A stretch of 1,127 nt of DNA from NCBI GenBank assembly GCA_000004985.1, contig GG739543.1; one strand, 5' to 3'. Made by a program: the position numbers and the translations under genes. This DNA is from Naegleria gruberi (Eukaryota). Under the pieces are notes generated by a model, which was given only the letters and a program-made list of their open reading frames with translations, made no database searches and was not told the origin of the DNA. Below are positions 1-461 of this stretch, one piece after another; the first letter of the stretch is position 1, and each line of letters begins with the position of its first letter.

Positions 1-461
1 CTCGCTTCATACGAATCCATATTATACGAAACTTGATTCTCTGCTGCCTTTCCAACACAACATCCACAACAACTCTTCATCATTTCTCCCAAACTCCAAC
101 AATAATCTGAGCAACATGACCCACAATCACAACACTCAAAATCACTGCAATCCATTCGTCCACATCCATTCGAACAACATTCGGAACAACTTGAGAAACA
201 CATTCTGCATCCACCTCCAATCATTGAATATCCAGCAATGATACAACAAAATCCAAATGCACCAGCACTCACAGCCCATTTAAATAGTTCAGAATCGGAT
301 TTGGAAGACGAATACGAATAATCACTTGGAGTGTAGAGGAAGAGGACTCCCAGGGCAATACTGACGAATCCAACGATGAAACCAAAGATAATGAGGCCAA
401 TTCCTGCAAAGATGGTGAAAGTGGCCTTTCTATATTCACGCATAGTGTCTCGGAGTGACAT
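1..461 (-). CDS. Partial CDS with the N-terminus in the window and the C-terminus beyond the left edge. Predicted small membrane protein with a cysteine-rich domain. Translation: MSLRDTMREYRKATFTIFAGIGLIIFGFIVGFVSIALGVLFLYTPSDYSYSSSKSDSELFKWAVSAGAFGFCCIIAGYSMIGGGCRMCFSSCSECCSNGCGRMDCSDFECCDCGSCCSDYCWSLGEMMKSCCGCCVGKAAENQVSYNMDSYEA...
   Basis: Hand translation of the minus strand from ATG (complement of 459..461) finds no stop through position 3: 153 codons, frame still open. The start context AACAAAAAAAAAATGTCA has A at -3 and an A-rich leader, matching the yeast-type consensus. A second in-frame Met lies at codon 7. Basic residues (R4, R8, R11, K12) precede a 29-residue hydrophobic segment F15-Y43 (+ coords about 333..419), which fits the positive-inside rule. 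A second hydrophobic, Gly/Ala-rich segment spans W62-G84. A Cys-dense region covers residues 85-135 (+ coords 57..209). The + strand here is G-depleted and C/A-rich, matching a G/T-rich coding strand full of TGT/TGC/GGT codons. The ORF is absent from the supplied track, presumably because no stop lies in the window. Confidence 0.6.
   Translation of the reverse strand, partial: MSLRDTMREYRKATFTIFAGIGLIIFGFIVGFVSIALGVLFLYTPSDYSYSSSKSDSELFKWAVSAGAFGFCCIIAGYSMIGGGCRMCFSSCSECCSNGCGRMDCSDFECCDCGSCCSDYCWSLGEMMKSCCGCCVGKAAENQVSYNMDSYEA

What the first reader, a model, noticed from the sequence alone, without database searches (positions are those of the whole stretch)
1..461. Untracked open-ended minus-strand ORF encoding a membrane protein
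The ORF track shows only a 79-aa minus-strand ORF. One frame over, a much longer frame is open from ATG at 461 to the left edge (at least 153 codons). Its product looks like a real protein: a basic N-terminus, a strong 29-residue hydrophobic helix, a short Ser/Tyr-rich loop, a second hydrophobic stretch, then a Cys-rich tail. The near-perfect A-rich start context (AAAAAAAAAATGTC) supports the ATG at 461.
Basis: seen in the sequence. Interest (0 to 1): 0.6.

Follow-up and report, generated by a model that had tools for sequence, protein, structure and literature searches.

The report
Annotated Naegleria cysteine-rich membrane protein gene
The open minus-strand frame is a real gene, the first 153 codons of a 270-residue Naegleria gruberi membrane protein with a cysteine-packed tail, but GenBank already lists it as a "predicted protein", it has no detectable relatives, and its function is unknown.

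Summary
The minus-strand frame from the ATG at 461 to the left edge is open for 153 codons. It encodes a basic N-terminus, a strong hydrophobic helix, a Ser/Tyr loop, a weaker second hydrophobic helix and a region with 17 Cys in 51 residues.

The window is an entire 1127-bp scaffold of Naegleria gruberi. This ORF is already annotated there (EFC35226.1, partial, 150 aa). It is annotated full-length (270 aa, NAEGRDRAFT_75606, D2W2J2) on a 175-kb scaffold. It looked "untracked" only because the ORF list drops frames that run off an edge.

Two near-identical environmental copies differ from the window at five sites in these 153 codons. All five are synonymous in this frame (P about 4e-4 if neutral), so the frame is under purifying selection.

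An exhaustive phmmer search of 1.84 billion representatives found only the protein itself. Pfam, NCBIfam and PDB gave nothing significant, so it is a lineage-restricted orphan.

My best guess is a two-pass hairpin protein whose cytosolic cysteine cluster next to the membrane is S-acylated and/or binds metal. This is inference only.

Homology to the native locus stops 15 nt upstream of the ATG. The rest of the window is the 5' end of an unrelated ORF, so the scaffold is a rearrangement or an assembly chimera.

The parts
1..461 (-). 5' part (codons 1-153 plus 2 bases) of an intronless 270-codon gene, the N. gruberi 'predicted protein' NAEGRDRAFT_75606 family. On this scaffold it is annotated as EFC35226.1 (partial, 150 aa).
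   Evidence: Translation with no stop. 100% identical to residues 1-153 of P0003 (P0005 differs here only at A139V). Cluster members and accessions. 99.2% DNA identity to L001 2391-2866.
459..461 (-). Start codon ATG, preceded by 8 A.
   Evidence: In native locus L001 an in-frame TAA lies 16 codons upstream with no other ATG. The GenBank models start here. A second in-frame Met at codon 7 was chosen by the Logan gene caller (P0006).
462..476 (-). 15-nt A-rich leader (ATTCAACAAAAAAAA) shared with the native locus. It is the last stretch of homology before the breakpoint.
   Evidence: Upstream alignment of window, L001 and L002. The blastn match ends at window 476.
333..422 (-). Codons 14-43: hydrophobic helix 1 (TFTIFAGIGLIIFGFIVGFVSIALGVLFLY), a confident transmembrane segment.
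   Evidence: Kyte-Doolittle 19-residue maximum 2.79, Hessa sum -3.1 kcal/mol. AF2 helix 3-43 with pLDDT about 85.
279..332 (-). Codons 44-61: short Ser/Tyr-rich loop (TPSDYSYSSSKSDSELFK), inferred to be non-cytosolic.
   Evidence: Sequence. 2 K/R here against 4 in the N-terminus, so the positive-inside rule applies. The side of the membrane is an inference.
210..278 (-). Codons 62-84: hydrophobic helix 2 (WAVSAGAFGFCCIIAGYSMIGGG), Gly/Ala-rich and uncharged, a marginal transmembrane segment.
   Evidence: Kyte-Doolittle maximum 1.75, Hessa sum +1.9 kcal/mol. AF2 helix 56-81 with pLDDT 54-62.
57..209 (-). Codons 85-135: cysteine cluster with 17 Cys in 51 residues (CC, CxC, CxxC and CxxxC spacings; CCSNGC and CCSDYC recur). 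It starts directly after helix 2.
   Evidence: Cys positions. No Pfam family at E <= 10. AF2 pLDDT below 40.
477..1127 (+). Unrelated sequence joined at the breakpoint. It holds 5 nt and then an ORF (ATG 482 to the right edge, 215 codons) identical to residues 1-215 of N. gruberi NAEGRDRAFT_66315 (P0002, 938 aa). It is not part of the membrane-protein gene.
   Evidence: Translation. 100% match to P0001 and P0002. No similarity to L001 upstream sequence.

Best explanation
Window 1-461 (minus strand) is the 5' 57% of a genuine, intronless, already-annotated Naegleria gruberi gene for a 270-residue protein restricted to this lineage.

Shown:
- The frame is open and is conserved at the protein level among three near-identical copies.
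- The protein has one strong and one marginal hydrophobic helix.
- A region with 33% Cys follows helix 2, and the last 133 residues are acidic (21 D/E against 5 K/R) and modelled with low confidence (pLDDT < 40), consistent with disorder.

Inferred:
- The two helices form a membrane hairpin with both termini in the cytosol (positive-inside rule).
- That places the cysteine cluster against the cytosolic face of the membrane.
- There it most likely acts as a thiol-based membrane anchor. Several Cys are S-acylated by DHHC enzymes, as in the post-TM2 'Cys-anchor' of P2X7 or the string of cysteine-string protein.
- Metal-thiolate binding, as in metallothioneins, is the nearly equal alternative.
- The acidic tail projects into the cytosol as an interaction region.
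For: Gene reality:
- Stop-free 153 codons; only 0.3% of shuffles match this.
- The ORF continues to 270 codons in L001 and L002.
- Public annotations EFC35226.1 and EFC36724.1 / D2W2J2 exist.
- All five variable sites in codons 1-153 are synonymous third positions. With 20.6% synonymous sites, P = 3.7e-4.
- The same substitutions change amino acids in the overlapping 79-aa frame.
- The first ATG follows an in-frame stop in the native locus.

Membrane hairpin:
- Hydropathy and Hessa-scale sums.
- AF2 helices 3-43 and 56-81.
- K/R distribution is 4 (N-terminus) and 2 (first 18 residues after helix 2) against 2 in the loop.

Cytosolic thiol cluster:
- Cys density of 33% equals that of metallothioneins and exceeds what I recall for disulfide-rich ectodomains (own knowledge).
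- Cys close to the cytosolic end of a TM helix are established DHHC substrates (PMC10520890).
- P2X7 carries a palmitoylated Cys-rich anchor right after its TM2 (PMC9859053).
Against: - There is no expression, proteomic or localisation data for this gene in any text searched.
- No homologue outside near-identical N. gruberi-type sequences was found, so there is no comparative support for any function.
- Helix 2 is only marginally hydrophobic (+1.9 kcal/mol), so the hairpin topology, and with it the cytosolic location of the Cys cluster, is not secure.
- The residues between the cysteines are mostly polar or acidic (S, G, D, E, N). That resembles metallothioneins more than typical hydrophobic palmitoylation strings.
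- The AF2 model of everything after residue 81 is uninformative (pLDDT < 40).
Confidence: 0.4

Rival explanations
1. Membrane-tethered metallothionein-like protein. Same hairpin topology, but the cytosolic Cys cluster (with four Met) chelates Cu(I), Zn or Cd as metal-thiolate clusters, buffering or sensing metal at a membrane.
For: 17 Cys in 51 residues with CC, CxC and CxxC spacings and S/G/D/E/N spacers, the density and spacer chemistry of metallothioneins (own knowledge). A weak PDB match to the eS31 zinc ribbon (E = 0.04) aligns C95, C100, C113 and C116 with its CX4C...CX2C zinc ligands.
Against: No Pfam metallothionein family hit even at E <= 10. BLASTP against human MT2A gives E = 20. 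Four aromatic residues (F89, F108, Y120, W122) lie inside the cluster, which is unusual for metallothioneins. The eS31 match is not significant for a Cys-biased query. The one paper read on Naegleria copper handling describes a Cu-ATPase and antioxidant system in N. fowleri and reports no such protein (PMC7578549).
Confidence: 0.25
2. Single-pass type II membrane protein. Only helix 1 spans the membrane. The Ser-rich stretch, the weak second hydrophobic stretch, the Cys cluster and the acidic tail are all extracellular or lumenal, and the cysteines form disulfides in a small compact surface domain.
For: Helix 2 has a positive Hessa-scale sum (+1.9 to +2.95 kcal/mol) and low AF2 confidence. The Ser-rich segment could be an O-glycosylated stalk (inference).
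Against: Residues 62-84 are 23 consecutive uncharged residues predicted helical, and a strongly hydrophobic neighbouring helix usually helps such segments insert (own knowledge). 33% Cys, and an odd total of 17 in the cluster (19 with C72 and C73), is atypical for disulfide domains. The long acidic Q/N-rich tail looks cytosolic or disordered rather than like an ectodomain.
Confidence: 0.15
3. Not a functional gene. It is a chance open frame in compositionally skewed DNA (+ strand C/A-rich, GC skew -0.67), carried into the annotation by an ab initio gene predictor.
For: No homologues beyond near-identical copies. No domain hits. 0.3% of shuffles also give an open frame. The annotation reads only 'predicted protein'.
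Against: The frame is open for 270 codons, not just 153, in independent contigs. Five of five substitutions are synonymous in this frame (P = 3.7e-4) and non-synonymous in the overlapping frame. The protein has an organised architecture. The gene sits in a normal 345-bp intergenic context after a kinase gene.
Confidence: 0.05

Closest known systems
Naegleria gruberi predicted protein NAEGRDRAFT_75606 (EFC36724.1 / XP_002669468.1 / UniProt D2W2J2) and its partial copy EFC35226.1
   Same: Identical over residues 1-153 except A139V in EFC36724.1. EFC35226.1 (150 aa, on a 1127-bp contig) is this very ORF on this very scaffold.
   Different: Nothing substantive. The window holds only the first 57% of the gene, and its native upstream region has been replaced.
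P2X7 receptor C-terminal 'Cys-anchor' (palmitoylated Cys-rich segment directly after TM2)
   Same: Two TM helices with cytosolic termini, and a Cys-rich segment that begins at the cytosolic end of TM2. In P2X7 this segment is multiply palmitoylated and membrane-associated (PMC9859053).
   Different: No sequence similarity and no P2X Pfam hit. The loop between the helices is 18 residues, where P2X receptors have a bulky ATP-binding ectodomain (PMC8199792 abstract). The Cys cluster is about three times longer.
Cysteine-string protein (DNAJC5) cysteine string
   Same: A dense run of cysteines next to a membrane, used as a multiple S-acylation anchor (own knowledge).
   Different: No J domain (no DnaJ hit). 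The protein here has its own TM helices. The Cys are spaced by polar or acidic residues instead of forming a nearly uninterrupted string.
Metallothioneins
   Same: About 33% Cys with CC, CxC and CxxC motifs and Ser/Gly/Asp spacers.
   Different: No profile or pairwise similarity. Contains aromatic residues. Embedded in a 270-residue membrane protein, not a small soluble peptide.
CYSTM (cysteine-rich transmembrane module, PF12734) tail-anchored stress proteins
   Same: Small eukaryotic membrane proteins rich in Cys (own knowledge).
   Different: In CYSTM the Cys lie within a single C-terminal TM helix. Here only 2 of 19 Cys are in a helix and the cluster is outside the membrane. No Pfam hit.

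Membership tests
N. gruberi NAEGRDRAFT_75606 protein cluster (90% identity cluster) | Near-identity over the full aligned length | tested here: met
   phmmer E = 2.4e-96, 100% identity over 1-153. Cluster members P0003-P0006 with accessions.
N. gruberi NAEGRDRAFT_75606 protein cluster (90% identity cluster) | Same genomic neighbourhood (kinase gene upstream on the same strand) | tested here: not met
   In L001 the kinase gene ends 345 bp upstream. In NEG-M the kinase EFC36723.1 and EFC36724.1 lie on the same 174,974-bp scaffold with consecutive accessions. In the window homology stops 15 nt before the ATG. So the coding sequence belongs to the cluster but sits in a rearranged or chimeric context.
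Integral membrane protein, two-pass hairpin | Two hydrophobic helices long enough to span a bilayer | tested here: inconclusive
   Helix 1 is clear (Kyte-Doolittle 2.79, Hessa -3.1). Helix 2 is marginal (Kyte-Doolittle 1.75, Hessa +1.9). AF2 helices 3-43 and 56-81. No dedicated TM predictor was available.
Metallothionein (Pfam metallothionein families) | Profile or sequence similarity to a metallothionein family | tested here: not met
   No Pfam hit at E <= 10 for the full protein or the isolated Cys region. BLASTP against human MT2A gives E = 20.
Metallothionein (Pfam metallothionein families) | About 30% Cys in CC/CxC/CxxC motifs with few or no aromatic residues | tested here: inconclusive
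   Cys density and motifs are met (17 of 51). Four aromatic residues lie inside the cluster (sequence).
Metallothionein (Pfam metallothionein families) | Stoichiometric metal-thiolate binding | not testable with these tools
   Needs biochemistry.
Cysteine-string protein (DNAJC5) | N-terminal J domain | tested here: not met
   No DnaJ hit in Pfam at E <= 1 or 10.
CYSTM module (PF12734) | Cys-rich C-terminal TM helix (tail anchor) | tested here: not met
   No Pfam hit. 17 of 19 Cys lie outside the hydrophobic helices, and 133 residues follow the cluster.
P2X receptor | Large Cys-containing ATP-binding ectodomain between TM1 and TM2; P2X Pfam profile | tested here: not met
   The loop is 18 residues. 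No Pfam hit.
eS31 / S27a-type zinc ribbon | Four zinc-ligand Cys (CX4C...CX2C) with significant sequence similarity | tested here: inconclusive
   PDB phmmer E = 0.04, 16.9 bits, aligning C95, C100, C113 and C116 to the ligands. Not significant for a Cys-biased query. No Pfam Ribosomal_S27 hit.
Non-LTR (LINE-like) retrotransposon, for the + strand ORF 482-1127 | APE endonuclease, reverse transcriptase or RNase H domains in the same ORF | tested here: inconclusive
   P0002 has RNase H (E = 2.3e-7, above cut-off). Its residues 317-937 are 63% identical to P0007, which has an APE 'endonuclease-reverse transcriptase' match below cut-off (23.7 against 27.4 bits). The window's 215 residues lie in the part of P0002 not shared with P0007 and have no domain hit.

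The most novel reading that the evidence does not exclude
The protein is a Naegleria-specific membrane-tethered metallothionein. A two-helix hairpin would hold a 51-residue, 17-Cys metal-thiolate cluster against the cytosolic face of a membrane, for example to buffer or hand over Cu or Zn at a transporter. I know of no described class that combines these features, and no family library placed the protein in one.
Probability: 0.15. Interest if true: 0.45.

Novelty: already known. Interest (0 to 1): 0.15.

Why it matters
The practical value is small. The check shows that a frame flagged as "untracked" is a bona fide, already-deposited gene model. It adds evidence the deposit lacks: synonymous-only variation in the first 153 codons and the full 270-codon ORF in independent environmental contigs.

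The protein is one of many uncharacterised lineage-restricted genes in N. gruberi. Its transmembrane hairpin followed by a 33%-Cys segment would make a compact test case for S-acylation or membrane-tethered metal binding in a heterolobosean. Nothing found here suggests a new principle.

For genome users, the 1127-bp scaffold should be treated as a rearranged or chimeric duplicate of two loci that sit on large scaffolds.

Tried and rejected
Searches that found nothing or misled:
- Word-indexed homology search with the 153-aa product: no hit. This was a false negative, because the protein's own cluster is in that collection.
- Back-translated pattern scans of IMG/VR and JGI metagenome contigs with the protein: nothing.
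- Exact 62-mer scan across the junction in viral contigs: nothing.
- Synteny approach, using the neighbouring kinase to fetch diverged Naegleria contigs from JGI metagenomes: nothing.
- Pfam, NCBIfam and PDB sequence searches: only sub-threshold hits driven by TM segments or Cys bias. These were DUF7139 (E = 0.022), DUF6249, SoxB and eS31 (E = 0.04).
- The look-up of encoding contigs for the NCBI models P0001, P0002 and P0005: not on record. The NEG-M scaffolds themselves could therefore not be read.
- Rfam: only SNORD96 at E = 0.9, taken as chance. No tRNA. No meaningful DNA repeats.
- Literature searches for the gene's accessions and for the metagenome run: none.

Ideas dropped:
- First guesses of Dictyostelium or a giant virus, based on AT-richness, poly-Asn and the short spacer, were dropped once the 100% N. 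gruberi matches appeared.
- The whole + strand ORF as a retroelement ORF was downgraded. Only the distal two-thirds of P0002 is LINE-like.

Not done:
- No structure-library search, because the model's mean pLDDT was 44 and matches would be meaningless.

Full report
**1. The observation.** On the minus strand, the frame beginning with the ATG at window 461-459 runs without a stop to position 1: 153 codons plus two bases.
- It is the only stop-free frame of the six across 1-461. The others contain 4 to 10 stops.
- This stretch is strongly skewed (GC skew down to -0.67), so I tested it against 5000 dinucleotide-preserving shuffles. Sixteen (0.3%) had any fully open frame. The open frame is unlikely by chance, though not overwhelmingly so on this test alone.
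It has a basic N-terminus (4 K/R in 13 residues) and a 30-residue uncharged hydrophobic segment (14-43).
- A Ser/Tyr-rich loop (44-61) and a second uncharged hydrophobic segment (62-84) follow.
- Residues 85-135 then hold 17 cysteines in 51 residues.
- Small corrections: eight, not nine, A residues precede the ATG. In this window the frame also stays open for 71 codons upstream of the ATG, but without another ATG.

**2. Where the window comes from.** The + strand ORF that starts at 482 and runs off the right edge (215 codons) is 100% identical to a Naegleria gruberi predicted protein.
- An exhaustive phmmer search of 1.84 billion cluster representatives with the 153-residue minus-strand product returned exactly one hit. 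It is a 270-residue protein identical over residues 1-153 (E = 2.4e-96).
- Its 90% cluster contains EFC35226.1 / XP_002667970.1, "predicted protein, partial [Naegleria gruberi]", 150 aa, on a contig of 1127 bp. That is the length of this window, and the sequence equals window codons 1-150.
- The cluster also contains EFC36724.1 / XP_002669468.1 / UniProt D2W2J2 (NAEGRDRAFT_75606), 270 aa, on a 174,974-bp scaffold.
- So the window is a whole small scaffold of the N. gruberi assembly, and the ORF is already annotated on it. It was "untracked" only because an ORF list that excludes ORFs touching a sequence end cannot show it. The ORF listing behaves the same way.
- The word-indexed search had missed this cluster, which is a caution about that tool.

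**3. The rest of the gene, and evidence that it is coding.** Two contigs assembled from one public metagenome run (ERR1078381) carry the complete gene. They are L001 (3785 bp, gene at 2406-3218) and L002 (1290 bp).
- Window 1-476 matches L001 at 99.2%.
- The ORF is a single uninterrupted 270-codon frame. The GenBank model has the same length, so the gene has no intron.
- In L001 an in-frame TAA lies 16 codons upstream of the ATG with no ATG between. A second Met at codon 7 cannot be excluded as the start.
- Across the 153 codons in the window, the three sequences differ at five sites (codons 4, 5, 105, 116, 152). All five are synonymous third-position changes.
- Only 20.6% of sites in this stretch are synonymous, so five of five has a probability of 3.7e-4 under neutrality.
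- The two substitutions that fall inside the overlapping 79-aa "track" ORF both change its amino acids. That ORF's ATG at 508 also lies in sequence that is not part of the native locus. The long frame is the coding one.
- The C-terminal 117 residues, outside the window, are less constrained. There are 2 non-synonymous and 1 synonymous differences between L001 and L002, and G165V in the NEG-M model. The NEG-M model's other difference, A139V, lies within the window's 153 codons.

**4. Anatomy of the protein.**
- Helix 1 (14-43) is unambiguous. Its Kyte-Doolittle 19-residue maximum is 2.79 and its sum on the Hessa biological scale is -3.1 kcal/mol. It is an AlphaFold2 helix with pLDDT about 85.
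- Helix 2 (62-84, Gly/Ala-rich, containing C72 and C73) is marginal. Its Kyte-Doolittle maximum is 1.75, its Hessa sum is +1.9 kcal/mol, and it is an AF2 helix with pLDDT 54-62.
- Positive charges favour a cytosolic N-terminus and a cytosolic post-helix-2 flank (4 + 2 K/R) over the loop (2 K/R).
- After helix 2 comes the cysteine cluster: C85, 88, 92, 95, 96, 100, 105, 110, 111, 113, 116, 117, 121, 131, 132, 134, 135. It has recurring CC-x3-C units (CCSNGC, CCSDYC) and a terminal CCGCC.
- An acidic tail of 133 residues follows (21 D/E against 5 K/R). AF2 leaves it unmodelled, with pLDDT below 40.

**5. Searches for relatives and families.**
- Apart from its own cluster, nothing was found at E <= 0.001 among 1.84 billion representatives.
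- Nothing was found in IMG/VR or JGI metagenome contigs.
- There were no significant Pfam or NCBIfam hits.
- In the PDB the only hit was a weak match (E = 0.04) of residues 93-124 to the zinc ribbon of ribosomal protein eS31. It places C95, C100, C113 and C116 on the CX4C...CX2C ligands. For a query this rich in Cys I treat it as a lead, not a result.
- BLASTP of the Cys region against human MT2A is null (E = 20).
- No paper in the library mentions any of the gene's accessions.
- The gene is therefore a taxonomically restricted orphan.

**6. How it most likely works.** Everything in this section is inference from architecture.
- If both helices insert, the termini are cytosolic and the cysteine cluster lies against the inner face of the membrane.
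- In the reducing cytosol, a 33%-Cys segment has two established fates. One is multiple S-acylation by DHHC enzymes, which prefer cysteines near the cytosolic ends of TM helices (PMC10520890). The other is metal-thiolate cluster formation, as in metallothioneins.
- The nearest architectural analogue I found is the palmitoylated "Cys-anchor" that follows TM2 of the P2X7 receptor (PMC9859053).
- I commit to S-acylation-based anchoring of the tail as the single most likely mechanism. The metallothionein-like reading is a close second, and the polar or acidic spacers and four Met favour it.
- A type II topology with an extracellular disulfide-rich domain is third. The weakness of helix 2 keeps it open.
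- Confidence that this is a real membrane-protein gene is high, about 0.9 or more. Confidence in the specific mechanism is low.

**7. Surroundings.** Homology with the native locus ends 15 nt upstream of the ATG, at window 476/477.
- In L001, 345 bp of non-coding DNA and a protein-kinase gene on the same strand lie upstream.
- The NEG-M orthologue of that kinase (EFC36723.1, D2W2J1) is on the same 174,974-bp scaffold, and its accession immediately precedes the membrane protein's. That arrangement is therefore the native one.
- In the window, 5 nt follow the breakpoint and then the ATG of an unrelated ORF pointing the other way. It is identical to residues 1-215 of NAEGRDRAFT_66315 (P0002, 938 aa, on a 502-kb scaffold) and to most of P0001 (on a 5345-bp scaffold).
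- Two start codons 20 nt apart leave no room for either promoter. The 1127-bp scaffold is either a recent rearranged haplotype or, more probably, a cloning or assembly chimera. I could not read the NEG-M scaffolds to decide.
- P0002 has an RNase H domain. Its residues 317-937 are 63% identical to P0007, which begins with an APE-type "endonuclease-reverse transcriptase" match. The distal part of that gene model is therefore a LINE-like remnant.
- The 215 residues encoded in the window lie in the unshared N-terminal part and have no domain hit. I do not call them retroelement sequence.

**8. Verdict.** What remains is an uncharacterised orphan with a curious cysteine-packed segment next to the membrane. 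It is ordinary as a genome-scan finding and of modest interest as a protein.

Noticed in passing
window 476/477 (and 462-481): Breakpoint. Identity to the native locus ends 15 nt upstream of the minus-strand ATG. An unrelated + strand ORF starts at 482, so the two ATGs are head to head and 20 nt apart. The native locus has 345 bp of spacer and a kinase gene instead. The 1127-bp scaffold is a rearranged haplotig or an assembly chimera.
   Followed up: partly
window 482-1127 (+): Open-ended 215-codon ORF identical to the N-terminus of N. gruberi NAEGRDRAFT_66315 (938 aa). The distal two-thirds of that model is LINE-like: it has RNase H and is 63% identical to P0007, which carries an APE endonuclease match. 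The part in the window has no domain hit and contains an Asn6 run.
   Followed up: partly
window ~991 (+), codon 170 of the plus ORF: A third copy (P0001, 173 aa, on a 5345-bp scaffold) is identical up to ...RPNKRKS and then ends RVY. No GT donor follows that codon in the window, so that copy diverges in sequence there rather than through splicing. This region exists in at least three assembly contexts.
   Followed up: no
Its ATG lies beyond the breakpoint, and both substitutions inside it are amino-acid changing. It is not a gene.
   Followed up: yes
window 86-185 (-), residues 93-124: Weak similarity (PDB phmmer E = 0.04) to the zinc ribbon of ribosomal protein eS31/S27a. Four Cys align to its zinc ligands. 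It is probably compositional.
   Followed up: partly
L001 1-3785 and L002 1-1290: One public 'metagenome' run (ERR1078381, PRJEB11402) contains two N. gruberi-like haplotypes of this locus, 98.7% identical to each other and 99.2% identical to the window. No paper naming the run was found.
   Followed up: partly
window 1-461 (-), tool behaviour: The word-indexed protein search reported no homologue although the query's own 90% cluster is in that collection. Only the exhaustive phmmer search found it.
   Followed up: yes
window 653-670 and 167-190: An (AAT)6 microsatellite encodes Asn6 in the + ORF. A 12-nt unit (CATTCGGAACAA) occurs 2.1 times inside the Cys-rich coding region.
   Followed up: no
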